This document shows, piece after piece, positions 6,093 through 29,514 of a stretch of 64,000 nucleotides of DNA. The translations under genes and the position numbers were made by a program. The stretch spans positions 132,009 through 196,008 of the forward strand of contig CAKPNA010000001.1 in assembly GCA_934168275.1 (NCBI GenBank), written 5' to 3'. Every line of letters starts with the position of its first letter. Position 1 is the first letter of the stretch. Under the pieces are notes generated by a model. The model saw only the letters and a program-made list of their open reading frames with translations. It did not search any database and was not told the DNA's origin. The DNA is from an uncultured Bacilli bacterium. GTDB lineage: Bacteria; Bacillota_I; Bacilli_A; RF39; UBA660.

Positions 6093-8279
6093 CTATTTTT
6101 TATAACAATAATTATCATTTATTTTAGTATATCCACTTAAACAAGTATAAGTTGTTACAAGAGCACGACAACTAAGATTATTATTATATAGTTCTTCTCC
6201 AGCATCACACCAACGATTATCCTTACACGATGAATAATTTACACTACCCTGTGATACACAGGAAGCTCCCCAACCTGTACATCGACATGACGTTACCCTA
6301 CCAGTATTTGTTATACAACCACAAGAACCAGTTATATTTGAGTGTGATGTACCTCTATCTTCATATGTAGAACTTTTCTGAGTTGCCACAATAATAATCG
6401 AACAGCTACTAGGATTACCTGCTGTATCTTTTACATAATATGTATGCGTTCCAACTGCAATACTCTTACTAGTACTATTACTTCCGGAATATGAACTACT
6501 CCATCCTTGATAAGCTATTCCTTTATCATCACTAGCTGTTGCTGTTATATTACTAGCATCAGCACTTAATGTACATGTTGGTGATGTTGTATCATTAGCC
6601 TTCCATATAGCATACAAAGTTGTTGATTCATTAGCTGTATACTTAGAACCCGGCTGATAACTAGTTCCACTACCATCAATACTAGTATTCCAACTAACAA
6701 AAGCATAACCTGTTCTCGTTGGCTTAGTACTAGATAAAGTTAAATCAACTGTATTATATTTATCTTGACTTGTCGGAGCACCACTACCACCATTAGCATT
6801 ATAATTAACTGTTATAACATTAGATATATAACCTATAATATTAATAACTGAACTATTACCAACATTATCATAAGCAATTACTTGGATATATCTTTGCCCT
6901 GTATCAGATATAGTTAAATTACTATTATTACTCACTATATTATTACTAACAATATTAGTATTTAATTGATTATATATACCACTACTATTTTGTAATATCC
7001 TAATCTCTTTTATATTGCTCATACTATCACTAGCATTATACTTAATATTAAAACTATTATAAGACCAATTCTTATCATCTATCGAAATACTAGTATTAGT
7101 ACTCTTCTCTATCTTATTACCAATTAAACTACCTAAACAATTATCTTTATTAGAGCACCTCTGTTCAATAACATTAATAGTAGGAGCTGTTCTATCAATA
7201 TAAATACTAACATCTATCTTACTACTATTTCCTGCTTCATCAGTTGCTACAATAGTAGCTTTTCTATTACCATCACCAGATAATGTCTTAGAGCAAGAAT
7301 TATTACAATTGGCACCACTATTACTAGGACTGCCTCCATTAATACTACCTTCATTATTATAAGTCCATTTAATCGCACTATTTTCATTAGTACTAATATC
7401 AAACCAATATCCATAATTTTTCCATTCATTAATTATATAATTACTATTAATAGTAGTAATAAGTTCTCCTTTAGTTTTTGGATTATTTCCCTCATAACTA
7501 CCAATCTTATAAACATTTAAACTAATAGCTGGAGGAATATTATCTATAAAATCAATATTCTTAGTAGCATCTGCTACATTCTCTCCATTAATATTAACAA
7601 AAGCCGATATTACACCATTAGATTTAATATTTAACCTAACTACATCACTACTTGCTAAATACCAACGTCCTGACTCTAAACTACTAACTGCATTATTACT
7701 ACAATTACCAATACCTTCACAAGAATAAACTACATCATTAGTAGTAACCGTATTTTCATCAAATTCTGATATATAAAAATATCTATAATAATTATCATTT
7801 AAACCATTATATAATATCTTCGTATTTGTTGTTTTTACTTTCTTACCTTTATTATCCGTAGATATTGATATACTAGATTGATAACCACAATCTACATCCG
7901 GTAAAATACTATCTTCAAAAGAAAAACTAGTCTCTTTTATAACTTTACTATCTTTATCTCTGACTACTTTTAACATAGTATCCTTTGATAATTTATCATT
8001 CTTATTAATAGTATTCTCATCAAAATAACCTATCTCTATCATATTACCTAATGATATACAACTATATTCATAATTATCTTTAACATTCCAATAACTAGAT
8101 ACTTCATCAGTATATATTTTCGATATATCTTTAATATTATTATAAGTAATTAACTCAGCATTATCTTTTGCCTTATTAATGTTTTTCATTACTATATATA
8201 CTGTAACACTTAAAACTACTCCAAGTATAACTACTGTACTTAATAACTCCACTAATGTAAAACCATTTTTCTTTCTCAT
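6093..8279 (-). CDS. prepilin-type N-terminal cleavage/methylation domain protein (large pseudopilin-like) with Listeria-Bacteroides repeat (Flg_new-like) domain and Cys-rich C-terminus
   Basis: The N-terminus MRKKNGFTLVELLSTVVILGVVL is a class III signal peptide (G|FTLVE). Residues ..GYAFVSWNTSIDGSGTSYQPGSKYTANESTTLYAIW match the Flg_new repeat. The last ~80 aa contain 14 Cys. Confidence 0.7.
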   Translation of the reverse strand: MRKKNGFTLVELLSTVVILGVVLSVTVYIVMKNINKAKDNAELITYNNIKDISKIYTDEVSSYWNVKDNYEYSCISLGNMIEIGYFDENTINKNDKLSKDTMLKVVRDKDSKVIKETSFSFEDSILPDVDCGYQSSISISTDNKGKKVKTTNTKILYNGLNDNYYRYFYISEFDENTVTTNDVVYSCEGIGNCSNNAVSSLESGRWYLASSDVVRLNIKSNGVISAFVNINGENVADATKNIDFIDNIPPAISLNVYKIGSYEGNNPKTKGELITTINSNYIINEWKNYGYWFDISTNENSAIKWTYNNEGSINGGSPSNSGANCNNSCSKTLSGDGNRKATIVATDEAGNSSKIDVSIYIDRTAPTINVIEQRCSNKDNCLGSLIGNKIEKSTNTSISIDDKNWSYNSFNIKYNASDSMSNIKEIRILQNSSGIYNQLNTNIVSNNIVSNNSNLTISDTGQRYIQVIAYDNVGNSSVINIIGYISNVITVNYNANGGSGAPTSQDKYNTVDLTLSSTKPTRTGYAFVSWNTSIDGSGTSYQPGSKYTANESTTLYAIWKANDTTSPTCTLSADASNITATASDDKGIAYQGWSSSYSGSNSTSKSIAVGTHTYYVKDTAGNPSSCSIIIVATQKSSTYEDRGTSHSNITGSCGCITNTGRVTSCRCTGWGASCVSQGSVNYSSCKDNRWCDAGEELYNNNLSCRALVTTYTCLSGYTKINDNYCYKK

Positions 8280-8336
8280 AATACCCTACTTTCTATCTAA
8301 TACAATTATAAAATAAAAAGTAAGTATTATCAAGTA

Positions 8337-9065
8337 TTAATTAATCTTTCCATCTTCATAAAAACTATAATAACTATTGTTTCCTATTATTAAGTGATCT
8401 ACTAATTTAATAGAGTGTATTACCCCTATTTCATAAATATTTCTAGTAATCATTATATCTTCTTTACTAGGAGTGGGATCTCCTGAAGGATGATTATGAA
8501 TACATATAATGGCGGATGCCGATAATAAATAAGCCTCTTTAAATATCTCTCTTGGATGAGCGATAGACTTATTAATACTACCTACAAATAATTTCTTCTT
8601 ACCTAAGCATTTCTTCTTATTATCTAAATAAAGACAATAAAACTCTTCTTGATAAGAATCTCTAAATAAATAATTAAAATACTTAATAATCTTATCTGGA
8701 CTATTACATACTAATAAATCTTTATCTAACACTTCTTGATATATTCTTCTTCCAAGTTCAATAATTGCCTTTAATTCAATAGCTTTAACTTTACCTATTC
8801 CCTCTACTTGTTCTAAAGTATTTATCCCAATATCTTTTAAATTACTAACATCTCCTATAACACTAAGTAAATTATAAGATACTTCTTTAACATTATATTT
8901 CTTCGTACCAGTCTTTAATATTATTGATAATAATTCTTCATTAGATAAACTTTTCTCCCCATACATAAGTAATCTCTCCCTAGGTAATTCTACCTTAGGA
9001 ATATTCTTTAACTTCATATAACACCCCCTATTAATAGTAATATATAAAATATCCTTTTTCAACAA
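8337..9065 (-). CDS. radC: RadC-like JAB domain protein
   Basis: HNHPSGDPTPSKEDI JAMM motif with an N-terminal HhH region; 242 aa. Confidence 0.8.
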   Translation of the reverse strand: MLKKDILYITINRGCYMKLKNIPKVELPRERLLMYGEKSLSNEELLSIILKTGTKKYNVKEVSYNLLSVIGDVSNLKDIGINTLEQVEGIGKVKAIELKAIIELGRRIYQEVLDKDLLVCNSPDKIIKYFNYLFRDSYQEEFYCLYLDNKKKCLGKKKLFVGSINKSIAHPREIFKEAYLLSASAIICIHNHPSGDPTPSKEDIMITRNIYEIGVIHSIKLVDHLIIGNNSYYSFYEDGKIN

Positions 9066-9116
9066 AATTAACTAAAAAAAAGATATAGACTTTTAAATCT
9101 ATATCTCATACTTACA

Positions 9117-11644: not shown

Positions 11645-12934
11645 TTATTTTTTAGGTATTAATTTATCTTTACCACCCATATAAGGTCTTAAAACTTCTG
11701 GAATAACTACACTACCATCTTCTTGTAAATTATTCTCTAAAAAAGCTATTAACATTCTAGGAGGTGCTATAACAGTATTATTTAAAGTATGAGCAAACTC
11801 TTTATCCCCATTTTCTTTTTTATATCTAATACCAAGTCTTCTTGCTTGAGCATCAGTTAAATTAGAACAAGAACATACTTCAAAATATTTCTTTTGTCTA
11901 GGACTCCAAGCTTCAATATCACAAGAACGATATTTTAAATCAGCTAAATCTCCTGAACAACAAACTAACTTACGAACAGGTATATCTAAACTTCTAAATA
12001 ATTCTACTGAATAATTCCACATCTTATTATACCATTCTTCACTATCTTCCGGTTTACATATAACAACCATCTCTTGTTTTTCAAATTGGTGAATACGATA
12101 TACTCCTCTTTCTTCTATACCATGAGCACCAACTTCTTTTCTAAAACAAGGTGAATAAGACGTCATTGTAATAGGTAATTCACTCTCTTTTAATATTTGA
12201 TCCTTAAACTTAGCAATCATGGAATGTTCACTAGTACCTATCAAATATAAATCTTCCCCTTCTATTTTATACATCATATTTTCTTTTTCTTCAAAAGACA
12301 TAACACCATTAACAGCATCTCCATGAATCATAAAAGGTGGAATACAATAAGTAAATCCTTTATCTATCATAAAATCTCTCGCATAAGCAAGTACTGCTGA
12401 ATGAAGTCTTGCAATATCTCCCATTAAATAGTAAAAACCATTACCACTAACTCTTCCTGCTGCCTCTTTATCTAATCCATTAAAACTAGCCATAATATCT
12501 GAATGATATGGTATCTCATAATTAGGTACTACCGGCTCTCCAAATCTAGCTTCTTCAACATTCTTACTATCGTCTTCCCCAATAGGAACATCATCAGCAA
12601 TCATATTAGGAATAGTCATCATTTTCTCTTTAAGTAAACTAGATAATTCTTCTTCATCTTTCTCTATATTAACTAATTCATTATTAATATCTTTAACTCT
12701 ATCTTTCTTTAGATTAGCTTCTTCTATCTTTTTATCTCGCATAAGTGCACCAATAGTATTACTAATTTCATTTCTCTCTTGTCTTAAATTATCACCATTA
12801 GTCTTTAACTCACGAATTCTTTGATCTAAACTAATAACTTCATCTACAAGTGGTAATTTCTTATCCTGAAACTTTTTCTTAATGTTTTCTTTTACTTTAT
12901 CAGGATTCTCTCTTACAAACTTAATATCTAACAT
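11645..12934 (-). CDS. serS: seryl-tRNA synthetase
   Basis: 429 aa with an N-terminal coiled-coil arm and class II aaRS motifs (..FRKEVGAHG..RIHQFEKQE..GRVSGNGFY). Confidence 0.92.
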   Translation of the reverse strand: MLDIKFVRENPDKVKENIKKKFQDKKLPLVDEVISLDQRIRELKTNGDNLRQERNEISNTIGALMRDKKIEEANLKKDRVKDINNELVNIEKDEEELSSLLKEKMMTIPNMIADDVPIGEDDSKNVEEARFGEPVVPNYEIPYHSDIMASFNGLDKEAAGRVSGNGFYYLMGDIARLHSAVLAYARDFMIDKGFTYCIPPFMIHGDAVNGVMSFEEKENMMYKIEGEDLYLIGTSEHSMIAKFKDQILKESELPITMTSYSPCFRKEVGAHGIEERGVYRIHQFEKQEMVVICKPEDSEEWYNKMWNYSVELFRSLDIPVRKLVCCSGDLADLKYRSCDIEAWSPRQKKYFEVCSCSNLTDAQARRLGIRYKKENGDKEFAHTLNNTVIAPPRMLIAFLENNLQEDGSVVIPEVLRPYMGGKDKLIPKK

Positions 12935-12999: not shown

Positions 13000-13260
13000 T
13001 TATTTTAACTTACTTCTTAAATAGTCTTCAAAAGTTTTAATACCATATATAGAATTATAATAATTAGGAAACTCATTTAAATGAGCAAGTGCTATCTTAG
13101 CAGTAATAACTAAATCATCATTACTAACATTAGTCTCAGGATTAACTAACCCATGCTCTAATTCTATATTCATACCATTTAATAAATCTAATGGCGTAAA
13201 CTTATCAAACTTAATACTAAGTATCTTAGATACTCTTTTAACATCATCAATATTAAACAT
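13000..13260 (-). CDS. hypothetical small protein
   Basis: 86 aa ORF with no recognised motif. Confidence 0.4.
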   Translation of the reverse strand: MFNIDDVKRVSKILSIKFDKFTPLDLLNGMNIELEHGLVNPETNVSNDDLVITAKIALAHLNEFPNYYNSIYGIKTFEDYLRSKLK

Positions 13261-13316: not shown

Positions 13317-13499
13317 TTAAGCTGTTTCCTTTGACATTTTATTAACTCCCTTATAAAAACCACATTTATCACATACTCTATGAGGTCTAATCATTTCACC
13401 ACAGTTTGGGCATTTAACTAAACCATTGGCTCTTAATTTATAATGAGTTCTTCTCATATCTCTTCTTGTCTTACTAACTTTTCTAAATGGAACTGCCAT
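13317..13499 (-). CDS. rpmF: 50S ribosomal protein L32
   Basis: [38 protein letters not shown]. Confidence 0.9.
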
Positions 13500-13501
13500 G
13501 T

Positions 13502-13978
13502 TTATCTATCCTCACTTTCTTCAATCATTTGCTTTAATTCTGTAAAAGGATTATTACTAGATTGTTCTTTCAAAAAATCATCTTCTGTAATAACTCTCCA
13601 TCCATCACCTTTTATCGTTACATTTTCATTTTTTGGAGAATGCACCTTTGAAGGAATTTCCACTAATATATTTTGCCACAAAATATCAGTAATATCAAGT
13701 GAATTTGTGAAATTTTCTAATTTTTCTTCAATTTTAATATTAAAAGAATAAGAAACATCCTCTAAAGTAGTATCATCAGGTAATATCATAACACCTGTTA
13801 TTACTCCATCTAATTCTAATCTATCATCAACTAACTTAACAATAGTACCATCAAATTTAACAGATTCTAACTTTCTTATATTACAATTATCTAAATACTC
13901 TATTGGTATATTTACATCATCTTTAATTACTAATTCATCTTCCATATTAAGAAGTAATTTACTAACATCAATAATCAT
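13502..13978 (-). CDS. yceD: YceD/DUF177 family protein
   Basis: 158 aa acidic protein immediately upstream of rpmF, which is the conserved yceD-rpmF arrangement. Confidence 0.65.
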
Positions 13979-14033
13979 ATTTCACCTGCCAATTAATTAT
14001 ACAATAAATACTATAAAATAGCAATAGTAGTAG

Positions 14034-14058
14034 TTTAGAATCTATCAAAAGTTATTTT
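14034..14058. repeat. 25 bp direct repeat (left copy) flanking the AAA+/vWA insertion
   Basis: tttagaatctatcaaaagttatttt is identical to 17270-17294. This copy supplies the stop codon of the vWA gene, read in a different frame from the rbgA copy. Confidence 0.9.
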
Positions 14059-15334
14059 CAACGTTTTGCCTTTTTACTAAACTTAATTTTTTTGCACCTT
14101 CTCTAGCCAATATATCATCTTCTTCAACAAATATATATCTTATACTTTTTTCATCAAAATCTTTAAAGAAATAGCGACGATTATAATCATCCAAAAAGCA
14201 TGGCTTTTCATGGCCGATAATAACCCACAATATATCTAATCTATTAGTTGGAAATGTTGAAAAGCCATCAGTTATAACTATTTTATTGTCAGAATCACTA
14301 GAAAAACTATCTGCCATAACATGAAAATTTGTTCCACCACGACCAACAATTTGTAAACTATCTATGTCATTATTAGTTCTTATATCATGCCATCCATAAA
14401 ACTTAGTATCACAAAATCCAACTTTAATATTACTATACAATAAAATATTTTTACATTCTCTTAATATAACTCTGATTTTAGCCATATCCATAGAACCACT
14501 ACTATCGATAATAATTTCACTATCAGAATCTATTTCTTCATTTTTCGTTTCTTTTTTAATTATTCCATCCATCTGAACTTCATAAAAACAAGTTGAACTA
14601 TCATCAGGGACTTTTAAGTTGGATTCTAATATATTCTGCCATCTTAGTAATGGCTTAGCCGTTCCAACAGCAACAGCAGGGAATTCTATTCCGAGAGCAT
14701 GTTCTCCACATTTTAATGGCTTTGATTTCTCCGATTCAAACTGTAATTTCATTTTATAACTATCAAATAATTCTTTTCGCATTTTTTCATTATTTGACAT
14801 TAAATCTTGCAAATCTTTAGCATCTGCATCTTTCATCATCTGTCCTGTCATTTCACTAACTTGACTTAAATCAATATGAAAAGTATTTCGACCCATCCAT
14901 TCCTTAATTTGATTAATTTGTGGCAACATTTTCATATATAATTCATCAACTGAATAATTTAGCGCATCCTCTACATATACTAATCCCTTAGGCATTTTTA
15001 AACCATCTCTAATCAACAATTGATTTATAATTGCATCCTCCACATAATTTAATAAATCTTGATCTCTACCAATATTTCTAAACAAATGACTTAAAACTAT
15101 ATGAAAAATTTCATGTACTATAATAAAAACTTTTTCTTCATCATCAAAATCAGTTAAAAACTCGTCTTTATAATAAATAGATTTCCCATCAGTAAAAGCT
15201 GGAGCGGGAACATTCTTTGATGTATGTTTTATTTCAAGATTAACAATTATATTTCCAAATAAAGGATATCTAAAAAGAACTTCATTAATTATATTATTTA
15301 TGTTCATTTGGCACCAACTTTTTTGCATAAGCAA
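14045..15334 (-). CDS. vWA domain protein with N-terminal HExxH metallopeptidase-like domain (DUF2201-like)
   Basis: HExxH at IIVHEIFHIVLSH; MIDAS-type DxSxS at IIIDSSGSMD. It overlaps the AAA+ gene by 41 nt. Confidence 0.65.
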   Translation of the reverse strand: MLMQKSWCQMNINNIINEVLFRYPLFGNIIVNLEIKHTSKNVPAPAFTDGKSIYYKDEFLTDFDDEEKVFIIVHEIFHIVLSHLFRNIGRDQDLLNYVEDAIINQLLIRDGLKMPKGLVYVEDALNYSVDELYMKMLPQINQIKEWMGRNTFHIDLSQVSEMTGQMMKDADAKDLQDLMSNNEKMRKELFDSYKMKLQFESEKSKPLKCGEHALGIEFPAVAVGTAKPLLRWQNILESNLKVPDDSSTCFYEVQMDGIIKKETKNEEIDSDSEIIIDSSGSMDMAKIRVILRECKNILLYSNIKVGFCDTKFYGWHDIRTNNDIDSLQIVGRGGTNFHVMADSFSSDSDNKIVITDGFSTFPTNRLDILWVIIGHEKPCFLDDYNRRYFFKDFDEKSIRYIFVEEDDILAREGAKKLSLVKRQNVENNF

Positions 15335-17129
15335 ATTGTTGCTTTTTATATAATTCCATCATTTTTTGTTCATCGCCTTTAGACCATTCATAATCAAACA
15401 TTGCTAAAAATTCATTCCCTAATTGAGATATAAATTCTCTTACTTTATCAAAGTTTTCATCATCTACACTTGATAAGCATAAAGTCGTATACCATCTTAT
15501 TGATGGATCAAATGGAACTGATGAAGGTGCACATCTATCGTTTATTACATCATCAATCGTAGCTAATTGCAATTTAGAAAATTTTATAAAGTCTTTGGTA
15601 ATCTCATCACCAACAAAAGCACGAAGAACATTTGGATTATTACACTCATATAAAGCTTTAGATGCTAGTGCCCACTTTCTAGGATCAGCATTAGGAGTAA
15701 TTCCATTATATGGTGTCCTTAATACTTTATTACCATTAACTTTAATATAGTCAACAATAGCAGGATGTATTTTTTCATGTTCTACAAGTGGTATGTATTC
15801 TAATTTTCTTTCTTCTTTTTTCCTTCTTAAAGCCCAATCCAACCATTCATCTGAATCAGTATCAATATAAACATGAGCAAATCTTCCAAATAATGGTTCA
15901 CTTAAACCATTAGCAGATCGTGATTCACTCACCTCATTACCCGCAGCACAAACAACAGCATTTTTGGGTAATTCTAATCTAAAACCACTGTTTGTAAGAG
16001 TTTTGTTAAGTGTTACCTCAAAAGCAACTTTTTGCACATCACTTTTAGCATTCGTTAACTCCTCTAAAAACAATATATGTAATAATTCAGGAGCCTCTTC
16101 ACATTTTTTGCATAAACTTTTATACCAATATGGCTCATATAAGAATAACTCTTTTGAATTAAAATCTTTGGCAATAATACCTGTAAATCCATCTGAACTA
16201 GTACAGCCAAAATCAATTAGTTCTAATTTTTTATCTAAAGCAAGCATTCTTTCAGTTTTACCAGTACCAGTTTTACCATGTAAAAATACTGCAATATTAC
16301 TTTTAATACAAATCTCTATAATATCTTCTTCGGTTAATGTAGAAAAATCAAAATTATATCTATTACTACTTGAAACCTCTTTTTCTTCATAAACCTGAAC
16401 TAATGATTTATGTTCTAATTCATCATTAATACTTGTTAAAAAATCAGTATTTAAATATTCATAAATAATTGTATCCTCAAAAAAATCCTTTTTATGTTGA
16501 CCAATTTTCTTAGAAAAGATAACAGCAACTGAATATATAACTCCTAATTTTTCATCATAAACAAATGGTATTTTATCAACTTTCATGTATATGATAGTAT
16601 CTTTTGCTGAATAGGTACCATCACTCAATAATTTTTTTGAGCCTTGATACGGAATTTTAATAAATCTTATTCCTAATACTTCATACTCCTCGTATAGTCT
16701 ACCATCTACATTATGTTGTCTACCTGTTTTATACAATAATTTACTTTTACTTTCAAACATTTTATCAATGGTTTTTCCAACTCCACCATTAATAGAATAT
16801 AAAGGATATTCAAAATCGATATCATCAATTTTAGATGCATCAAAACCATCAATATCATTAACATCAATAACAATTCTAACTCCTTTTTTATCATCATTAA
16901 TACTTGCAATATTTAATATTCCACTGCCACTTACATATTTTCTAGTTCTTACATTTGGTTGATTTTGTGAAGGCATCCCATCTACCCAATAATCACCAAA
17001 ACCAACTGTTTCGTCATACTTGCCGTCAGTAATTCGTGCTAAATCTGAATAATAACACCTTAAATCATTGCTTTCTGATAATTTTCTAATTTGTTCCTCT
17101 GTAAAAATGCCAATTTTTCTAACCTTCAT
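15294..17129 (-). CDS. AAA+ ATPase (MoxR/McrB-like) with about 280 aa N-terminal domain of unknown function
   Basis: Walker A FLHGKTGTGKT, Walker B ILFLEEL, sensor-1 CAAGN, Arg finger region PLFGRF. The likely start is MKVRKIG at 17129, preceded by a GGAGGAAG Shine-Dalgarno; the 6-frame ORF extends to 17186. Confidence 0.65.
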   Translation of the reverse strand: MKVRKIGIFTEEQIRKLSESNDLRCYYSDLARITDGKYDETVGFGDYWVDGMPSQNQPNVRTRKYVSGSGILNIASINDDKKGVRIVIDVNDIDGFDASKIDDIDFEYPLYSINGGVGKTIDKMFESKSKLLYKTGRQHNVDGRLYEEYEVLGIRFIKIPYQGSKKLLSDGTYSAKDTIIYMKVDKIPFVYDEKLGVIYSVAVIFSKKIGQHKKDFFEDTIIYEYLNTDFLTSINDELEHKSLVQVYEEKEVSSSNRYNFDFSTLTEEDIIEICIKSNIAVFLHGKTGTGKTERMLALDKKLELIDFGCTSSDGFTGIIAKDFNSKELFLYEPYWYKSLCKKCEEAPELLHILFLEELTNAKSDVQKVAFEVTLNKTLTNSGFRLELPKNAVVCAAGNEVSESRSANGLSEPLFGRFAHVYIDTDSDEWLDWALRRKKEERKLEYIPLVEHEKIHPAIVDYIKVNGNKVLRTPYNGITPNADPRKWALASKALYECNNPNVLRAFVGDEITKDFIKFSKLQLATIDDVINDRCAPSSVPFDPSIRWYTTLCLSSVDDENFDKVREFISQLGNEFLAMFDYEWSKGDEQKMMELYKKQQFAYAKKLVPNEHK

Positions 17130-17157
17130 AAATCTTCTTCCTCCATAACGTCTAAAT

Positions 17158-17186
17158 ATGATAACATAAATTTTTAATATTTGCAA
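17158..17186 (-). promoter_or_regulatory. sigma-A-like promoter (TTGCAA-17-TATCAT) inside the inserted cassette
   Basis: Minus strand reads ttgcaaatattaaaaatttatgttatcat, about 30 nt upstream of the AAA+ gene's Shine-Dalgarno. Confidence 0.4.
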
Positions 17187-17269
17187 TTATCATCTATAGA
17201 CATTTTATCAAATAAAAAACTAATTCTTGCCTCTTCACACTATATAGCAAAAATTAGTCTAATAATTAA

Positions 17270-17294
17270 TTTAGAATCTATCAAAAGTTATTTT
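17270..17294. repeat. 25 bp direct repeat (right copy, at the 3' end of rbgA)
   Basis: Identical to 14034-14058. Confidence 0.9.
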
Positions 17295-18131
17295 ACCCAA
17301 ATACCCATCTCTTAAATCTCTAAGTACTTTAATATAAACCCTATCATAATCAACTTCACCATTTTTAACTGCTCCTATCTTCTTACCAATACCATCTAAT
17401 ATATTAACAATATCTTCATCATCATTAACTCCATATCTACTAATAATATTATCAGGATATAACTTAAACATAGTCTTAATTATGTATATAGAAATATCTT
17501 CTACATCTAATATTTCTTCTTTAATAGCTGTCATAGAAGCTAAATTATAAGCAATAGTTGAATCATTAAACTTTGGCCATAATATTCCTGGAGTATCTAA
17601 TAATTCTAACTTATCATTAATTCTTATCCATTCTAAATTCTTTGTAATACCCGGTTTATTTCCAACATTTACTGCCTTCTTACCAACTAATCTATTAATT
17701 AAAGTAGATTTTCCAACATTAGGAATACCTAATACTAAACTTCTAACCCTTCTAGGTTTTAAACCTTTATTAATTCTCTTACTATTAATAGATTCCATAA
17801 GTTCATTAGCAATACTAAATATTTCATTAACATTATCATGTAGTAAGTCTAATAAAACTACTTTATAACCTTTATTCTCATAATACTTCTTCCACTCTAA
17901 AGTAATATTCTTATCACATAAATCACTTTTTGTCATAATAAGTATTCTAGGTTTATTCTTAATAATATCTTCTATATCGTTATTCTTAGAAGACTTTGGT
18001 ATTCTAGCATCTATTACCTCAAATACAATGTCTATTAAATCTATTTTTTCTTTTATTTCTCTTTTGGCTTTGGCCATGTGACCAGGGAACCAGTTGATGT
18101 TTGTTTTATTTTCGTTATTCATTATTTCCAC
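17271..18131 (-). CDS. rbgA: ribosome biogenesis GTPase A (YlqF/RbgA)
   Basis: INWFPGHMAKA N-terminus and circularly permuted GTPase motifs (..TKSDL.., GIPNVGKST). Confidence 0.88.
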   Translation of the reverse strand: MEIMNNENKTNINWFPGHMAKAKREIKEKIDLIDIVFEVIDARIPKSSKNNDIEDIIKNKPRILIMTKSDLCDKNITLEWKKYYENKGYKVVLLDLLHDNVNEIFSIANELMESINSKRINKGLKPRRVRSLVLGIPNVGKSTLINRLVGKKAVNVGNKPGITKNLEWIRINDKLELLDTPGILWPKFNDSTIAYNLASMTAIKEEILDVEDISIYIIKTMFKLYPDNIISRYGVNDDEDIVNILDGIGKKIGAVKNGEVDYDRVYIKVLRDLRDGYLGKITFDRF

Positions 18132-18143
18132 CTTCCTCTTTTA

Positions 18144-19172
18144 TTAAAATTTATTTGTTTCTTCTATCAGCAAATCAAAATCTGACTTATATAATTTATC
18201 TTGTTTAATTCTATACTTTTCAAATTCTGTTAATGCCTTATCACAAGCTATTTCATGTGATATTTTTCCGGCGTCTTTTAATATATCTAAATCATCAGCA
18301 AGCAAAAACTTATCTATTCTTGTAGACCAATCTTCCATAGTCATTGGAATATGTCTTTTTGCTCTATTTTCTGCTAAGTCTAAAAAGGCAGATACTATTA
18401 GTTCTAAACTTTCCAGTTCTTCTTTAGATAAATAATTTTTAGCTATTACAACATCTGTTTCTAATACTTTTCCATTTGGTGAATTTTTCCAAGAAGTAAG
18501 ACCCATATGTTCCTTTTCTGAATTTGCTCTATTATATATAATTTCAGCAGCCGTTTGATGAGAAACTGCATAATGCATTTTATTTTGAACCTTTTTAAAA
18601 AAATTAATTGTTGTAGGAGACTTTTTATCATAGTCTACACTAGTGGCATAAATATCGGTAACTTTCTGATAAAATCTTCTTTCAGATAATCTGATTTCTC
18701 TTATCTCTGCAAGCAAAGACTCATAATAATCTTCATCAAAGAATGCTCCATTTGCCATCCTCTTCTTATCTATTATATAACCTTTTTTTGAAAATTCTTT
18801 TAATATATAAGTTGCCCATCTTCTAAATTGTATAGCTCTGTCTGAGTTTGTCCTATAACCTACTGAAATAACCATATCTAAATTATAATATAATATATTT
18901 CTAGTAATCTCCCTATTACCTTCTTTTTGAACTAGTAAGAATTTCTTACTAGTTGAATTTTGCTCTAATTCATAACTATTATATATATCATTAATATGCA
19001 TAGTAATATTATTTCTAGTTGTATTAAAAAGCTCCCCAATAGCTTTCTGTGTTAACCATAAATCACCATCTTCAAATCTAACCTGAATTCCTTTATTATG
19101 TGTTTGTCTTTCAAATATTAAGAATTCTGCACTGCTACTTCTTATAATTAAATCTTTAGACATTTTTGTCAT
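18144..19172 (-). CDS. RhuM family virulence-associated protein
   Basis: The N-terminus ..FLIFERQTHNKGIQVRFEDGDLWLTQKAIGELFNTTRNNITMHI matches the conserved RhuM/Fic-associated N-terminal region. Confidence 0.65.
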   Translation of the reverse strand: MTKMSKDLIIRSSSAEFLIFERQTHNKGIQVRFEDGDLWLTQKAIGELFNTTRNNITMHINDIYNSYELEQNSTSKKFLLVQKEGNREITRNILYYNLDMVISVGYRTNSDRAIQFRRWATYILKEFSKKGYIIDKKRMANGAFFDEDYYESLLAEIREIRLSERRFYQKVTDIYATSVDYDKKSPTTINFFKKVQNKMHYAVSHQTAAEIIYNRANSEKEHMGLTSWKNSPNGKVLETDVVIAKNYLSKEELESLELIVSAFLDLAENRAKRHIPMTMEDWSTRIDKFLLADDLDILKDAGKISHEIACDKALTEFEKYRIKQDKLYKSDFDLLIEETNKF

Positions 19173-19343
19173 CTCCTTTATTTAAAATCTTAGTTTTCCA
19201 TCAAACAAAGTTACCCTTGCTTTTAATATTTTTTCAAAATTATTTGGTTTATCTCCCAAAACTTGTCTGTTATATAAATAGCTTTTAATCTAAAATGTTA
19301 ATGTGTCATAACTCCAACCGTTTTTAACTGTTTGATTCATATA

Positions 19344-20042
19344 CTATACCCGTTTTTCTTCTATTGCAATATCTTTAGCGGCTATTTCACCAATATTAGT
19401 TAATGCCACTTCAATATCTGTCATATTATCTCTAAGTGATTCCTTTCTAATTCCTTTATATTCTTTATATTCACTCGCCTTCATTCCAGACCAACCTTTA
19501 TAGATTTCATTTGTAAGTAATGCATATTCTATAGGATTAGTTATGCCTCCATTCTTCCATACATCTGTAAGCTTAAATTTATCAACTATTCCAGTAAGTC
19601 TTGTTTTTATCCACTCATCAGTATAACCTTTATTGCGATAATATTCTACTATCCTATTAACAGCCAGTTCTGGATTAAATACTTCATCTATCCTTTCACT
19701 ACCTAAATTAGCAAGCCATAATTTGAAAGGTTCTGCCTTTGGGCTTGGAACAGACTCTATTAACCTAAATATGTCTTTAGTTATCATGACATCTCTTAAT
19801 CTAATCTTTCGATCTGGAGCTAACATTTTTAACTGACTACAATTTGTAGTCACTTCGCTGCCTTCTTTTTTTAATCTATTTTTTAATACAGACCAATATT
19901 TTCTTGGCTCATTGCTATCTGTTAAAGCGCCAATTACATCAACTACACTAAAATAGTACTCTTCTCTTTCACTATTCCATACGCTTCTTATTTCTTTACC
20001 TTCAAACAAATTTGAAATTGTTTCTAATTTATTACTTATCAT
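19344..20042 (-). CDS. BRO-N domain protein (phage antirepressor-like)
   Basis: ..FEGKEIRSVWNSEREEYYFSVVDVIGALTDS.. is BRO-N-like. Confidence 0.65.
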   Translation of the reverse strand: MISNKLETISNLFEGKEIRSVWNSEREEYYFSVVDVIGALTDSNEPRKYWSVLKNRLKKEGSEVTTNCSQLKMLAPDRKIRLRDVMITKDIFRLIESVPSPKAEPFKLWLANLGSERIDEVFNPELAVNRIVEYYRNKGYTDEWIKTRLTGIVDKFKLTDVWKNGGITNPIEYALLTNEIYKGWSGMKASEYKEYKGIRKESLRDNMTDIEVALTNIGEIAAKDIAIEEKRV

Positions 20043-20079
20043 TTCATTCCCCTTTACATTGTTTTATTATCAATTACAT

Positions 20080-21009
20080 TTAATAATTCCTATTTCTACA
20101 CATATGATATGGCTTAACAATATCTTTAACATCTTTTGAAGCTAAAAACAAATAATCATTTATATCAATAGAACAAAACCTATCTAATTTTGAATTAATA
20201 TAATTAATAACTGCTATCATATTCGCTCTTATTTCTACTTCATACCCTAAATTTTCTTCTACTACTTGCTTATTATCTACTATATCAGATAACTCAGACC
20301 TATATTCAATTATTCCTAAAGCCCTTAAAGTCTGTGGTATCTTATAATCAGCACATCCTACCAAATGACTATAGTCAACCTTTGCTCCAATAATTAATTC
20401 TTTTATATGTAAAATATCAGAAGTTAATAATTGTGCTAACTTATAAAAATATATTTTTTGATTATTATAATCTCTTACATCACAAAAAACACTAAAATTA
20501 CTAATAATAATATCAAATAATTCCGTATCTATATTAACATCCTTAATAAAATTATAAAAATTACCATTCATCTTTTCATTGACAACATGGCATATTGATT
20601 CAATAGTATTATATCTTTCTCTTAAAAAAGGAATATCAATATTTCCCTTCAATATCTGAGAAAATTCTTCAAAAGAAACATGAGAAAAATCAACGTCATT
20701 AGTTTTCTTCACATAACTTAACAGTGCATATAATAAAGCATCTGACCCATCTTTCTTTCCCTCTATAGTTTCTATTGTCCATTTAGAATTACCCCAAAAG
20801 CAATAATTTATTGAATCATATAGTAGCATAAAATTAATTATTTTATCAATACTCATATCAAATAAATTATAAGGATTACTACTAAGCCAAAACTTTATTT
20901 TTTTAACATTAATATTCTTTATATATTCATCTAACACTTTGTAATTAATTACTACATATTTACTATTTTCAGCAACATAATTACAAGATTCTCTAATTTT
21001 TCCTAACAC
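20080..21009 (-). CDS. possible queuosine-salvage family protein (DUF2419/Qng1-like)
   Basis: ..LLYDSINYCFWGNSKW.. resembles the conserved DUF2419 core. Assigned from memory of the family and not verified. Confidence 0.4.
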   Translation of the reverse strand: MLGKIRESCNYVAENSKYVVINYKVLDEYIKNINVKKIKFWLSSNPYNLFDMSIDKIINFMLLYDSINYCFWGNSKWTIETIEGKKDGSDALLYALLSYVKKTNDVDFSHVSFEEFSQILKGNIDIPFLRERYNTIESICHVVNEKMNGNFYNFIKDVNIDTELFDIIISNFSVFCDVRDYNNQKIYFYKLAQLLTSDILHIKELIIGAKVDYSHLVGCADYKIPQTLRALGIIEYRSELSDIVDNKQVVEENLGYEVEIRANMIAVINYINSKLDRFCSIDINDYLFLASKDVKDIVKPYHMCRNRNY

Positions 21010-21168
21010 ACTATCACTTCCACACTATTGTTTTGTTTCAAGAAACTCTAATACACCTTTATTTTCTAATTGTTTCTTTTCTTTTTCAAGTTCTTTCAAA
21101 CTTTTATCAGGTGTTGGCATTTCTTCTGGCATCATCCCGCCAATATCAGCAATAGCCTTTCTGACTTT

Positions 21169-21894
21169 TTAGCCAACTTCATAATGGACATCTTTTGCTT
21201 CTCTCTCACCCTGTACATTATCTTTTAAAAGTTTTTGTTTAGTTTGATTTATTCTGAATAAATTAGCCACTAATTCATCTTCATTCATATTATCTAAAAT
21301 GTCTTCTCTATAACGTAATTTTTTTCTTTTAAATATATCGTCAGCAGTTTCTCCATTATACAAGCCCTTATATCCAGCATTATGAAACTCTGCCATGTTT
21401 TTTACACCAGCTGCTGAAGCAACCTTTTGTAATGTATAATTTCCTTGCTTTGTTAACCTTCTTTGATAAAATCTTTTTTCAGTATTTGATAACGAATCAT
21501 ATTCTTGTTCAGTTATTTCTTGTTTTCTAGTTTGTATTGCAAAATAAGTTTGCCCTAAAGCGACAACTTCTTTACTTGGATCAGCATTTTGTACTATCAA
21601 ATAACATATATATCTTGATAATTTATAGTCTTTAATAAATTCTTTTTTGCCCTTACCAGTTTTTATTGGCTTGTTGACATCAACAACCCAATTGTTTTTA
21701 CCTGAAACACTATTGTTTGCTGATAAAATTGCTTTATCTATTACTTTTTGAAAATTTCTCCAATCTTTGTATTCTAAAACTTTTGAAAGTTCTCTAACAA
21801 ACCAATACTCATTACCACACTCATCAATATGCTTTATATTTTCAAAAACACTATTAGAATACACATCTACTATTTCATTCATTTCTATACTCAT
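21169..21894 (-). CDS. DinD-like (DNA-damage-inducible protein D family, BRO-N related) protein; 47 further in-frame codons follow its TAA stop
   Basis: ..NEYWFVRELSKVLEYKDWRNFQKVI.. matches the E. coli DinD N-terminal region. After the TAA at 21171..21169 the same frame stays open to 21025. Confidence 0.65.
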   Translation of the reverse strand: MSIEMNEIVDVYSNSVFENIKHIDECGNEYWFVRELSKVLEYKDWRNFQKVIDKAILSANNSVSGKNNWVVDVNKPIKTGKGKKEFIKDYKLSRYICYLIVQNADPSKEVVALGQTYFAIQTRKQEITEQEYDSLSNTEKRFYQRRLTKQGNYTLQKVASAAGVKNMAEFHNAGYKGLYNGETADDIFKRKKLRYREDILDNMNEDELVANLFRINQTKQKLLKDNVQGEREAKDVHYEVG

Positions 21895-28587: not shown

Positions 28588-28689
28588 ACTATATTCCCCC
28601 CAAATGTTGCTTTATTATATCATAAACAAATGTATGTGTCAATATGTCATAATATACCGTTAAAAATAATAGACTCTTATTTAAGCCTA

Positions 28690-29499
28690 TTATCTACTAT
28701 GTCTTACTTCATTATCTAATTTATGTGGATATCTAATAACTTTTTTCTCATTATTAAATATCACTGCATTAGGATACAATCTACTTAATTCATCTAATTC
28801 TTCATCGCCATAATTAATTTTCTTTATGCATATGCCATTAATTAAGAATGGTGGTATCCCTCCCGGAATAGCAGACCAATAATTAGTTTTAAATTCATAT
28901 TCATATCGCATCCCCTTACCAGCTGGTGATAAAGGTTCAATAAGATTTTCAAGTAAATCTATTTCTTCTTTAGTATATATTTGAGGTATACTTTCTGGAG
29001 AAGTTTCTTTTATATGTTCAAACTCAAAATAATCTAAGTGAAGTAAATATTGCATAATAGGATTTGTATCATCAAAAAATAGTAATAATCCTCTTCCAAT
29101 ATTTAATCTACTATAATTATCTTCTGCAAGATCCCCTCTATATTGATATTCATCATCTTTCATTCTTGAAACAAAAGTACAAAAACATCCTTCTCTTTCT
29201 GATTCAAGTAAGCCAAACCATTCACTTGCTAATACTCCATATTGAGAAATTAATCTTAAACTATTAAGATCAGAAGAACATCGATGATTAACCATATAAG
29301 ATTTAATAATAACATTATTATCTACATCAATACTCATTGGTGTTACTTCACTATCTTTAGCTTTTTCATATAAATTATAATACAATCTCTCTAACATTCT
29401 AATTTTATCTTTTAAATAATCACTATCTACTAAATCATGTTTAGATAAATCTTTAAATTCACCTTCAGCATTGCCAAGATTAGCCCCTTTAATTACCAT
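28690..29499 (-). CDS. hypothetical protein (269 aa)
   Basis: ORF with no recognised motif. Confidence 0.45.
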   Translation of the reverse strand: MVIKGANLGNAEGEFKDLSKHDLVDSDYLKDKIRMLERLYYNLYEKAKDSEVTPMSIDVDNNVIIKSYMVNHRCSSDLNSLRLISQYGVLASEWFGLLESEREGCFCTFVSRMKDDEYQYRGDLAEDNYSRLNIGRGLLLFFDDTNPIMQYLLHLDYFEFEHIKETSPESIPQIYTKEEIDLLENLIEPLSPAGKGMRYEYEFKTNYWSAIPGGIPPFLINGICIKKINYGDEELDELSRLYPNAVIFNNEKKVIRYPHKLDNEVRHSR

Positions 29500-29514
29500 A
29501 TTCTATCCTCAAAA

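What the first reader, a model, noticed from the sequence alone, without database searches (positions are those of the whole stretch)
14034..17294. AAA+ (MoxR-like) ATPase plus HExxH-vWA two-gene cassette inserted after rbgA with 25 bp direct repeats
A perfect 25 bp direct repeat (tttagaatctatcaaaagttatttt) brackets exactly the two overlapping genes and their TTGCAA-17-TATCAT promoter. The right repeat is the native last 7 codons plus stop of rbgA. The left copy is reused in a different frame as the stop of the vWA gene. This looks like a site-specific insertion at the 3' end of rbgA between rbgA and the yceD-rpmF operon. vWA-MoxR pairs with an extra peptidase-like domain have been proposed as NTP-dependent conflict or defence systems. 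This compact two-gene version has an uncharacterised ~280 aa N-terminal domain on the ATPase and no integrase.
Basis: partly seen in the sequence, partly recalled or inferred. Interest (0 to 1): 0.65.

Follow-up and report, generated by a model that had tools for sequence, protein, structure and literature searches.

The report
Integrase-less two-gene cassette after rbgA
A 3.2-kb piece of DNA carrying two co-transcribed genes (an ATP-driven motor protein with a previously undescribed front domain, and a protease-like partner) has been inserted cleanly at the end of a ribosome-assembly gene in some strains of an uncultured gut bacterium; the insertion is real, but how it moved and what it does remain unproven.

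Summary
A perfect 25-bp direct repeat (14034-14058, 17270-17294) brackets a 3,211-bp cassette. It holds a promoter, an AAA_5 ATPase and a DUF2201_N/DUF2201 (HExxH + vWA) gene that overlaps it by 14 nt.

Four conspecific contigs, plus a sister lineage with two mismatches, have rbgA directly followed by yceD. They carry one copy of the 25-mer and exactly the window's outer flanks. Six independent assemblies carry the cassette. More distant species with rbgA-yceD adjacency lack it, so it is a derived, polymorphic insertion.

The cassette has no recombinase, terminal inverted repeats or dif-like symmetry, and no attP-type junction was found. It best resembles an att-flanked, integrase-less CIME-like element, but a one-off insertion with a 25-bp target duplication is not excluded.

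Relatives of the pair ride on integrative mobilizable elements or sit alone at unrelated chromosomal sites. Homologues without the N-domain are adjacent genes in N4-like phages.

The 240-aa N-terminal domain models confidently but matches nothing in Pfam, PDB or BFVD. It evolves 5-10 times faster than the ATPase core.

A defence role is plausible but unsupported: PADLOC gives no hit, and the pair is not one of the published vWA-MoxR ternary systems.

The parts
17271..18131 (-). rbgA (ribosome biogenesis GTPase A), the target gene. Its last 7 codons plus stop lie inside the right-hand repeat copy.
   Evidence: Pfam MMR_HSR1/RsgA_GTPase hits. It is 93-97% identical to rbgA of the conspecific loci L001, L002, L041 and L042.
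17270..17294 (-). attL-like copy of the 25-bp direct repeat (AAAATAACTTTTGATAGATTCTAAA on the - strand). It is the native rbgA 3' end plus 1 nt.
17190..17269 (-). Left-end non-coding 80 nt of the cassette. Its origin is unknown. It is found only in the filled alleles of this species.
   Evidence: blastn-short against all fetched loci finds it only in L034 and L043-L045. It is absent from viral contigs.
17158..17186 (-). Promoter-like TTGCAA-17-TATCAT with an upstream TG, followed by a GGAGG ribosome-binding site.
   Evidence: Consensus scan. An equivalent element sits at the same place upstream of the homologous pairs in L037 and L038. RBS. Function is inferred, not shown.
15294..17132 (-). 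AAA+ (AAA_5) ATPase, 612 aa. Layout: N-domain residues 1-240 (16413-17132), linker (16329-16412), AAA core residues 269-430 (15843-16328), helical C-terminal region (15297-15842). Motifs: Walker A GKTGTGKT (16254-16277), Walker B ILFLEE (16059-16076), sensor-1 AAGNE (15933-15947).
   Evidence: Pfam AAA_5. PHROG 1297, E 2e-39. AF2 model pLDDT 86.7. Invariant motif residues in 44 homologues. Coordinates.
16413..17132 (-). N-terminal beta-rich domain of the ATPase, with no detectable known relative.
   Evidence: AF2 pLDDT 93.3, pTM 0.90. No Pfam hit even at E<=10. No Foldseek match in PDB (best E 0.035, TM 0.10) or BFVD. Only 13 clusters among 1.84 billion representatives match at E<=1e-3. dN/dS is 0.2-0.35 against 0.02-0.05 in the AAA core.
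14045..15307 (-). DUF2201-family partner, 420 aa. It has an N-terminal zincin-like domain with HEIFHIVLSH (15086-15115) and a C-terminal vWA-like domain. MIDAS residues: DSSGS (14492-14506), GGT (14327-14341), TDG (14264-14275). The start overlaps the ATPase stop by 14 nt. The last 4 codons plus stop come from the left-hand repeat copy.
   Evidence: Pfam DUF2201_N and DUF2201. PHROG 1314. Weak PDB sequence match to the minimal metallopeptidase projannalysin, E 0.0012. The motifs are invariant in an alignment that includes homologues from an N4-like phage and an Acinetobacter plasmid.
14034..14058 (-). attR-like copy of the 25-bp direct repeat. It supplies ..ENNF* of the vWA gene.
13996..14024 (-). 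Native yceD-rpmF promoter-like element TTGCTA-17-TATAAT. The insertion leaves it intact, and it is identical in the empty sites.
13317..13978 (-). yceD (13502-13978) and rpmF (13317-13499), the operon downstream of the insertion site.
   Evidence: Pfam YceD. tblastn across loci. Annotation of L043.

Best explanation
This is a derived, strain-polymorphic insertion of a compact, non-autonomous two-gene cassette into the last 25 bp of rbgA in an uncultured gut Bacilli species.

Mobility (inferred, about 0.5). A circular DNA carrying the pair and a copy of the rbgA 3' end recombined with the chromosomal rbgA end. This was conservative site-specific recombination or a Campbell-type single crossover over a 25-bp identity segment. 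It restored rbgA and left attL- and attR-like direct repeats. The recombinase acted in trans or was lost afterwards, so the element is now a CIME-like remnant. A possible trace of that loss is the vWA reading frame running into the repeat. The allele then spread, or was lost, within the species by homologous recombination of the flanks and/or deletion between the repeats.

Function (inferred, about 0.35-0.4 for the conflict reading). The two translationally coupled genes form an ATP-driven remodelling/proteolysis module. The AAA+ ring would use its fast-evolving N-terminal beta domain to recognise a target. The partner would dock through its MIDAS-vWA domain and cleave with its zincin-like HExxH domain. 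The module is habitual cargo of integrative mobilizable elements. I take it to act in conflicts between mobile elements, phages and the host (exclusion/defence or establishment), not in housekeeping.
For: Insertion:
- Empty sites L001, L041, L042 and L060 equal the window's left flank + one 25-mer + right flank. L002, a sister lineage, is empty with 2 mismatches in the 25-mer.
- Filled sites are the window, L034, L043-45, L059 and L061.
- The more distant species L004 and L014 have rbgA-yceD adjacency without the cassette.
- The cassette genes are intact and under purifying selection within the species.
- Cassette divergence (0.7-1.4%) is similar to that of yceD-rpmF and serS.
- Flank haplotypes are mosaic with respect to filled/empty state.

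att-like reading:
- Site-specific tyrosine-integrase elements in streptococci are flanked by 12-54-bp direct repeats that contain the end of a housekeeping gene (PMC4701971).
- CIMEs are defined as elements that kept attL/attR but lost their integration and transfer genes (PMC5704250).
- The rbgA coding sequence and the yceD promoter are both preserved.

Mobile-element cargo:
- Relatives at 63-76% identity lie next to Mob_Pre or MobL relaxases, large serine recombinases, AAA_25 and HTH genes (L039, L047-49, L053).
- The 87% relative lies in an element with N6_N4_Mtase and a SpaA adhesin (L037).
- The pair is adjacent in the N4-like phage S6.

Active module:
- Walker A/B, sensor-1, HExxH..H and MIDAS residues are invariant.
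- The 14-nt overlap is conserved.

Recognition domain:
- The N-domain is 38-48% identical where the AAA core is 86-90% identical in the same proteins.
- dN/dS is 0.2-0.35 against 0.02-0.05.
Against: Against the mobility model:
- No recombinase lies in the cassette. None lies in the 15 kb upstream that was scanned, and the genes downstream in L043's precomputed Pfam annotation include none. No homologue of the serine recombinases seen on related elements lies anywhere in the window.
- No attP-type junction and no other element was found at this site among metagenome, viral or YceD-anchored look-ups.
- None of 30 other species' rbgA loci shows a repeated rbgA tail.
- The recombinases seen on related elements are serine recombinases, which do not normally leave 25-bp repeats (own knowledge).
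- No other copy of the pair has convincing flanking repeats.
- The 25-mer is identical only to this species' own rbgA end. That fits a target duplication as well as an att core.

Against the conflict function:
- PADLOC gives only a weak hit, E 0.01.
- There is no experimental literature on DUF2201.
- N-domain dN/dS is well below 1, so there is no domain-wide positive selection.
- Several solitary copies sit among housekeeping genes, not in defence islands.
Confidence: 0.5

Rival explanations
1. A one-off illegitimate insertion. A linear or circular fragment holding just promoter + ATPase + vWA was captured at a staggered break in the rbgA 3' end. Fill-in repair duplicated 25 bp of target, giving a true target-site duplication. 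No site-specific recombinase was involved.
For: - No recombinase, no attP and no other user of the site were found.
- The repeat is identical to this species' own rbgA end, while other species differ at 2-5 positions.
- Other copies of the pair lack repeats.
- Homology to the nearest relative (L037) is limited to the promoter and coding sequence. It ends at about the vWA stop codon, and the vWA frame simply runs on into target DNA.
Against: - 25 bp is longer than the target duplications of known bacterial transposition systems (own knowledge: usually 2-15 bp).
- No transposase or terminal inverted repeats are present.
- The insertion neatly preserves both rbgA and the yceD promoter, although selection could explain that.
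Confidence: 0.27
2. The cassette is ancestral in the species, and the empty alleles arose by deletion between the repeats. Under this reading the polymorphism reflects loss, not gain.
For: - Recombination between the 25-bp repeats would give exactly the observed empty site.
- Cassette divergence is as large as that of the flanks.
- Flank haplotypes do not sort by filled/empty state.
Against: - The sister lineage L002 and the other species with rbgA-yceD adjacency (L004, L014) are empty. An insertion must therefore still have happened at the base of, or within, the species.
- This rival concerns later dynamics only, and it is compatible with the main explanation.
Confidence: 0.1
3. A Xer/dif-type module or an integron-like cassette, moved by host recombinases acting on a short structured site.
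For: It is an integrase-less small cassette bounded by identical sites of about 25-28 bp.
Against: - The 25-mer and the reconstructed attB/attP have no dyad symmetry beyond chance: best 7-8 of 11 arm matches, and 29% of shuffles reach 8 or more.
- There is no resemblance to the B. subtilis dif sequence, which I recalled from memory.
- GC skew is uniform across the region, so this is not a replication terminus.
- The cassette has its own promoter and no attC-like palindrome.
Confidence: 0.02
4. Function rival: the pair is a housekeeping-type MoxR/vWA chaperone for assembly or metal insertion of a specific enzyme (as with NorQ/NorD or CbbQ/CbbO), acquired horizontally, with no role in genetic conflict.
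For: - It has the MoxR-type + vWA operon logic.
- Several solitary copies lie among metabolic genes, next to rubrerythrin in L055/56 and next to glyoxalase and RibD_C in L057/58.
Against: - No conserved client gene is next to the pair across 12 contexts.
- The pair is repeatedly linked to relaxases and recombinases, and it occurs in lytic phages.
- It is dispensable within the species.
- The partner carries a conserved peptidase motif, which classical chaperone pairs lack.
Confidence: 0.12

Closest known systems
CIMEs (cis-mobilizable elements) and decayed ICE/IMEs of streptococci
   Same: They are flanked by attL/attR direct repeats that include the end of a conserved housekeeping gene, and they carry no integration or transfer genes. 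Repeat lengths of 12-54 bp are reported for tyrosine-integrase elements (PMC5704250; PMC4701971).
   Different: - No cognate ICE or IME using the rbgA 3' end was found here.
- Streptococcal elements that target rbgA use its 5' end.
- This cassette is only 3.2 kb.
- Its mobilisation is untested.
Pseudo-SCC / SCC-like cassettes at the 3' end of rlmH (orfX) in staphylococci (own knowledge, not tested here)
   Same: They insert at the 3' end of a ribosome-related housekeeping gene, which stays intact. They are bounded by short direct repeats. Versions without the recombinase genes exist.
   Different: SCC uses Ccr serine recombinases and a defined integration-site sequence. Nothing homologous was seen here, and the hosts are unrelated.
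ATPase + DUF2201 gene pair of N4-like phages (PHROG 1297 + PHROG 1314; e.g. Erwinia phage S6 gp035/gp036)
   Same: Both proteins are homologous and the genes are adjacent. HExxH and MIDAS residues are invariant across the alignment.
   Different: Phage ATPases match only residues about 270-605 at 23-25% identity and lack the N-terminal domain. Their function is unknown, and the phage partner is mis-annotated as 'HNH endonuclease'.
Classical MoxR-type AAA+/vWA chaperone pairs (RavA-ViaA, CbbQ-CbbO, NorQ-NorD, CoxD-CoxE, BchI-BchD; own knowledge)
   Same: An AAA+ ATPase with beta-hairpin inserts is paired with a MIDAS-bearing vWA protein in one operon. By analogy, the mechanism is ATP-driven remodelling of a vWA-captured client.
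   Different: - No sequence match to any solved member.
- Pfam assigns AAA_5, not AAA_3.
- The ATPase has an extra N-domain.
- The partner carries a zincin-like domain.
- The pair is borne on mobile elements and is dispensable.
vWA-MoxR ternary conflict systems (Kaur, Burroughs, Iyer, Aravind 2020; PMC7159879)
   Same: The core is a MoxR-like ATPase plus a vWA protein. A peptidase-type domain is fused to the vWA protein, and one part of the system diversifies.
   Different: - There is no third component (VMAP, iSTAND, FtsH or beta-propeller).
- The peptidase lies N-terminal, not C-terminal, to the vWA domain.
- The host is a unicellular gut Bacilli lineage and its phages, not multicellular bacteria.

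Membership tests
Site-specifically integrated element (ICE/IME/CIME type) | [quoted passage not shown] | tested here: met
   Perfect 25-bp repeat = rbgA last 7 codons + stop + 1 nt.
Site-specifically integrated element (ICE/IME/CIME type) | Empty site (attB) with a single repeat copy in related genomes | tested here: met
   L001, L041, L042 and L060 are exact. L002 has 2 mismatches.
Site-specifically integrated element (ICE/IME/CIME type) | Integrase/recombinase encoded by the element (this feature is absent by definition in CIMEs) | tested here: not met
   Only two genes are present, AAA_5 and DUF2201. No recombinase lies in the 15 kb upstream that was scanned. No serine-recombinase homologue lies anywhere in the window.
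Site-specifically integrated element (ICE/IME/CIME type) | Evidence of recombination at the site: an attP/circular junction, or the same site used by related elements | tested here: not met
   - The 25-mer finds only empty sites in metagenome contigs and nothing in viral contigs.
- YceD-anchored look-ups show only the empty state or this cassette.
- There is no repeated rbgA tail in 30 other species.
- Excision itself is not testable with these tools.
Transposon / insertion sequence | Transposase gene and terminal inverted repeats, with a short target-site duplication | tested here: not met
   There is no transposase domain. No inverted repeat joins the cassette ends. The 25-bp duplication exceeds the usual range (own knowledge).
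Xer-dependent dif module / IMEX | Site of about 28 bp with two inverted 11-bp arms around a 6-8-bp centre, resembling dif | tested here: not met
   Best dyad is 7-8 of 11, no better than shuffles, and there is no dif-like alignment.
AAA_5 (PF07728) AAA+ ATPases, helix-2-insert clade ('MoxR-like' in the broad sense) | Pfam AAA_5 above the gathering score; Walker A, Walker B and sensor-1 present | tested here: met
   - Pfam score is 25.4 bits against a cut-off of 22, which is marginal.
- GKTGTGKT, ILFLEE and AAGNE are invariant in 44 homologues.
- Two beta-hairpin inserts appear in the model's secondary structure at residues 319-332 and 378-387 (their assignment is my inference).
- Foldseek's best PDB hits are MCM subunits, but only at TM 0.25.
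MoxR proper (AAA_3, RavA/MoxR subfamily) | Match to AAA_3 or to solved MoxR/RavA/CbbQ proteins | tested here: not met
   Pfam gives no AAA_3 hit. The profile and single-sequence searches of PDB give no AAA+ relative.
DUF2201 family (PF13203 + PF09967) | Both Pfam domains above the gathering score; HExxH and vWA MIDAS motifs | tested here: met
   Scores are 80.4 bits (cut-off 23.2) and 29.6 bits (cut-off 26.4). H65, E66, H69, H74, D268, S270, S272, T326 and D347 are invariant.
vWA-MoxR ternary conflict systems (PMC7159879) | A third conserved component (VMAP, iSTAND, FtsH, or a beta-propeller fused to vWA) and effector domains C-terminal to the vWA domain | tested here: not met
   The unit has two genes in all 12 contexts examined. 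The peptidase-like domain lies N-terminal to the vWA domain. Definition taken.
Known anti-phage defence systems (PADLOC-DB v2) | Significant match of the components to a defence-system model | tested here: not met
   The ATPase gives only HEC-02B at E 0.01 over 40 residues. The vWA protein gives none.

The most novel reading that the evidence does not exclude
The pair is an undescribed two-gene conflict system of gut Bacilli and their mobile elements. A structurally novel, fast-diverging N-terminal domain on a highly conserved AAA+ motor recognises an invader or rival-element protein. It then hands that protein to a vWA-tethered zincin peptidase. The module also travels as a minimal, integrase-less cassette that can be captured at the ends of housekeeping genes.
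Probability: 0.3. Interest if true: 0.65.

Novelty: new variant of a known kind. Interest (0 to 1): 0.42.

Why it matters
The finding gives a clean natural gain/loss polymorphism, with filled and empty alleles at about 96-99% flank identity. The module involved is a two-gene ATPase/peptidase-vWA pair that is widespread on integrative mobilizable elements and in N4-like phages, yet no experimental work on it was found in the literature searches made. The matched strains would make its function directly testable.

The N-terminal domain has a confident predicted structure with no detectable relative and a very narrow distribution. That makes it a candidate specificity module.

The integrase-less, 25-bp-repeat-bounded structure is also a useful case for asking how small cargo modules move in reduced-genome gut Bacilli that are known only from metagenomes.

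Tried and rejected
1. Extended homology beyond the 25-mer. The repeat finder reported 58 nt at 76%, but the extra 33 nt score no better than shuffles.
2. Flanking repeats at other copies of the pair (L037-L058). Only short or low-complexity matches of 15 nt or less were found, consistent with chance.
3. A recurrent att site at the rbgA 3' end in 30 other species. None was found. My recollection that streptococcal elements target the rbgA 3' end was wrong; they use the 5' end.
4. A donor element or attP. The 25-mer and the cassette left end are absent from viral contigs. Metagenome hits were only empty sites. The left-end 80 nt is absent from all other loci.
5. Recombinases in the window. There are no serine-recombinase or relaxase homologues. 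Pfam on ten upstream ORFs found none.
6. dif/Xer or a palindromic site. Rejected.
8. Literature on DUF2201 and on N4-like phages. No functional study was found.
9. The DUF5661 indel next door was checked for the same mechanism. It has no repeat.
10. Domain-wide positive selection in the N-domain. dN/dS is 0.2-0.35, so the domain is fast-evolving but under purifying selection.

Full report
**1. The observation**

The 25-mer occurs exactly twice in the window, at 14034-14058 and 17270-17294. No further copy appears with up to 3 mismatches, and none is expected by chance.

All genes here are on the - strand. In order they are: rhuM, rbgA (18131-17271), an ATPase gene (17132-15294), a vWA gene (15307-14045), yceD (13978-13502), rpmF, a DUF5661 gene and serS.

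- On the - strand the repeat reads AAA ATA ACT TTT GAT AGA TTC TAA A.
- At 17270-17294 it is the last seven codons and stop of rbgA.
- At 14034-14058, in another frame, it supplies ..E N N F stop of the vWA gene.
- The 58-nt family reported by the repeat finder does not hold up. The 33 nt beyond the 25-mer align no better than shuffled sequence, so the repeat is exactly 25 bp.
- The vWA gene starts at ATG 15307, not at the upstream TTG. This gives the same 14-nt overlap with the ATPase stop as in every homologous pair.
- A TTGCAA-17-TATCAT element with an upstream TG (17186-17158) and a GGAGG ribosome-binding site precede the ATPase.
- An equivalent element precedes the homologous pairs in L037 and L038. 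This conservation matters more than the consensus match, because promoter-like matches are not enriched in this AT-rich DNA.

**2. It is an insertion, and it is polymorphic**

A scan of one genome per species with RbgA returned 36 loci, all from uncultured gut Bacilli ("Tenericutes", CAG:302-type MAGs).

- In L001 (RbgA 95% identical) and L002 (93%), rbgA is followed directly by yceD-rpmF-serS. L034 carries the cassette.
- At nucleotide level the L001 junction is exactly the window's rbgA flank, one 25-mer and the window's yceD flank.
- A metagenome scan for the 25-mer gave two further empty sites, L041 and L042.
- Look-ups of the identical ATPase and of the identical YceD gave filled sites L043-L045, L059 and L061, and empty site L060.
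- The sister lineage L002 is empty with two mismatches in the 25-mer. L004 and L014, the more distant species in which rbgA and yceD are adjacent, are also empty. The empty state is therefore ancestral.
- Seven independent assemblies, differing by 0-1.4% in the cassette, rule out an assembly artefact.
- Cassette divergence between strains (0.7-1.4%) is like that of yceD-rpmF and serS (0.3-2.7% in most comparisons).
- Flank haplotypes do not sort by filled or empty state. For example, the window's right flank is closest to the empty L042. L061 is 100% identical to the window from rbgA to rpmF but only 95% identical in serS.
- The allele is therefore not brand new. It has been reshuffled by homologous recombination and/or gained and lost more than once.

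**3. How it got there**

The cassette holds only the two genes.

- No homologue of the serine recombinases or relaxases of related elements lies anywhere in the window.
- Ten ORFs upstream contain no recombinase. The downstream genes are housekeeping-type.
- No inverted repeats join the cassette ends.
- There is no dif-like dyad symmetry.
- No attP-type junction or larger donor element was found. The 25-mer and the cassette's left end are absent from viral contigs, and the left-end 80 nt is absent from every other locus.
- None of 30 other species has a repeated rbgA tail downstream.
- In conspecific strains only two states exist at the site.
- Other copies of the pair have no convincing flanking repeats.

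Homology to the closest relative (L037, 87% at protein level) covers only the promoter and the two genes. It stops at about the vWA stop codon. The window's vWA reads on for eight extra residues (..KRQNVENNF*), of which the last four and the stop come from the repeat.

Two models fit.

- **Model A: att-type recombination.** This is conservative site-specific or Campbell-type recombination over a 25-bp identity segment, with the recombinase in trans or since lost. Site-specific tyrosine-integrase elements in streptococci are flanked by 12-54-bp repeats containing the end of a housekeeping gene (PMC4701971). Elements that keep attL/attR but have lost their integration and transfer genes are known as CIMEs (PMC5704250). 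A deletion that removed the rest of a larger element would also explain the vWA frame running into attR.
- **Model B: a one-off capture.** A staggered break with fill-in would give a true 25-bp target duplication. This would explain why the repeat matches only this species' own rbgA end and why nothing else uses the site. However, 25 bp exceeds known transposition duplications (own knowledge).

I favour A (about 0.5) over B (about 0.27). The data cannot decide between them.

My recollection that streptococcal elements target the rbgA 3' end was checked and is wrong. They use the 5' end.

**4. What the cassette encodes**

*The ATPase*

- It hits Pfam AAA_5 marginally (residues 282-418, 25.4 bits against a cut-off of 22) and PHROG 1297 strongly (2e-39).
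- Walker A (GKTGTGKT), Walker B (ILFLEE), sensor-1 (AAGNE) and many other residues are invariant in 44 homologues.
- No solved structure is related by sequence.
- The AlphaFold model is confident (pLDDT 86.7). It shows a beta-rich N-domain (1-240), a linker, an AAA core with two beta-hairpin inserts and a helical C-terminal region.
- Foldseek's best PDB hits are MCM subunits (E about 1e-10, but TM only 0.25). I read this only as support for the insert-bearing AAA+ clades.

*The partner*

- It is a clear DUF2201_N + DUF2201 protein and matches PHROG 1314.
- It has a weak sequence match to the minimal metallopeptidase projannalysin (E 0.0012).
- HExxH..H and the MIDAS residues (DxSGS, T, D) are invariant from these Bacilli to an N4-like phage and an Acinetobacter plasmid.

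Both proteins therefore look catalytically competent. Within the species the ATPase gene is under purifying selection.

**5. The N-terminal domain**

- Modelled alone it is very confident (pLDDT 93.3, pTM 0.90).
- It has no Pfam hit even at E<=10 and no NCBIfam hit.
- An exhaustive HMMER search of 1.84 billion representatives finds only 13 clusters at E<=1e-3. Two of them are proteins of about 480 aa that carry the domain without an AAA+ module.
- Within the family the domain is 38-48% identical where the AAA core is 86-90% identical in the same proteins.
- Pairwise dN/dS is 0.2-0.35 in the N-domain against 0.02-0.05 in the core. The domain is functional but evolves 5-10 times faster, without domain-wide positive selection.
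- This pattern fits a specificity or recognition module.

**6. Where the pair lives**

Full-length relatives (49-87% identical) are abundant in the same bacterial clade. The contexts seen were:

- an element with N6_N4 methyltransferase and a SpaA adhesin (L037);
- elements with Mob_Pre or MobL relaxases, large serine recombinases, AAA_25 and HTH genes (L039, L047-49, L053);
- solitary two-gene units among housekeeping genes at unrelated sites (L038, L046, L055/56, L057/58).

The unit always has two genes.

The AAA+ and C-terminal part (residues about 270-605) matches 363 phage records at 23-25% identity. These are mostly N4-like Schitoviridae, plus Bacillus phage G. In Erwinia phage S6 the ATPase gene is followed by the DUF2201-type gene, which is mis-annotated "HNH endonuclease". 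There are also hits on Burkholderia conjugative plasmids. Close relatives are rare in IMG/VR contigs.

**7. Function**

Nothing experimental is known about DUF2201.

- PADLOC has no model for the pair.
- The published vWA-MoxR conflict systems are ternary. They are defined by VMAP, iSTAND, FtsH or a beta-propeller component and by effectors C-terminal to the vWA domain, and they occur in multicellular bacteria (PMC7159879). This pair does not qualify as a member.
- By analogy with MoxR-type/vWA pairs (own knowledge), I propose the following. The ATPase ring uses its N-domain to bind a target. The partner docks through MIDAS. ATP-driven remodelling then exposes the target to the zincin-like peptidase.
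- Three things point to a role in conflicts among mobile elements, phages and the host, as exclusion/defence or establishment: the habitual mobile-element linkage, dispensability within a species and the fast-evolving N-domain. My confidence in this reading is only about 0.35-0.4.
- A housekeeping chaperone role is less likely, because no client gene is conserved next to the pair.

**8. Verdict**

- The insertion reading is correct.
- "Site-specific" and "defence" remain hypotheses.
- The mobility architecture is a new instance of a known kind (an att-flanked, integrase-less cassette).
- The cargo is a new variant of the AAA+/vWA theme, with an N-terminal domain that has no detectable relatives.
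- Interest is moderate.

Noticed in passing
window 13000-13260 (- strand), between rpmF and serS: An 86-aa DUF5661 gene is a second presence/absence polymorphism 0.8 kb from the cassette. It is present in the window, L043, L044 and L061, and absent in L001, L002, L042, L059 and L060. It replaces about 13 nt, has no flanking repeat, and segregates independently of the cassette (L059 has the cassette but no DUF5661).
   Followed up: partly
window 18144-21894 (- strand); L060:1-5087: The region upstream of rbgA is a variable island. The window, L059 and L061 carry RhuM (18144-19172) and two Bro-N proteins (19344-20042, 21169-21894). The empty-site strain L060 instead carries Nuc_deoxyri_tr2, YhcG_C/DUF1016, Ham1p, SWIM and a 71-aa fragment of a serine-recombinase 'Recombinase' domain. 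RhuM genes lie just upstream of rbgA in many other species of the clade.
   Followed up: partly
window 30800-31747 and 32310-33077 (- strand): There is a strong match to the 5-hmdU DNA kinase helical domain (HMUDK_hel, E 3e-107). I recall this family as part of phage DNA hypermodification pathways (from memory, not checked here). It sits near a TraX-family gene and three ORFs (26128-30432) with no Pfam hit.
   Followed up: no
L061:7045-8334 versus window 11645-12934: L061 is 100% identical to the window across rbgA, the cassette, yceD and rpmF, but only 95% identical in serS. This indicates a recombination breakpoint near the DUF5661 gene and frequent homologous exchange in this species.
   Followed up: no
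proteins P0126 and P0130: The ATPase's N-terminal domain also occurs at the start of proteins of about 480 aa that lack any AAA+ module. They carry an unannotated helical C-terminal half instead. This is a second architecture for the domain.
   Followed up: partly
window 6152-7181 versus L001:8270-8765: There is a length polymorphism (1029 against 495 bp) inside the large Flg_new-repeat protein gene (6093-8279).
   Followed up: no
L038:1-1213 and 7832-9082: One relative's contig carries two DUF2201-type genes about 6.6 kb apart. The first is a longer (523 aa) version cut by the locus end, so some genomes hold more than one such system.
   Followed up: no
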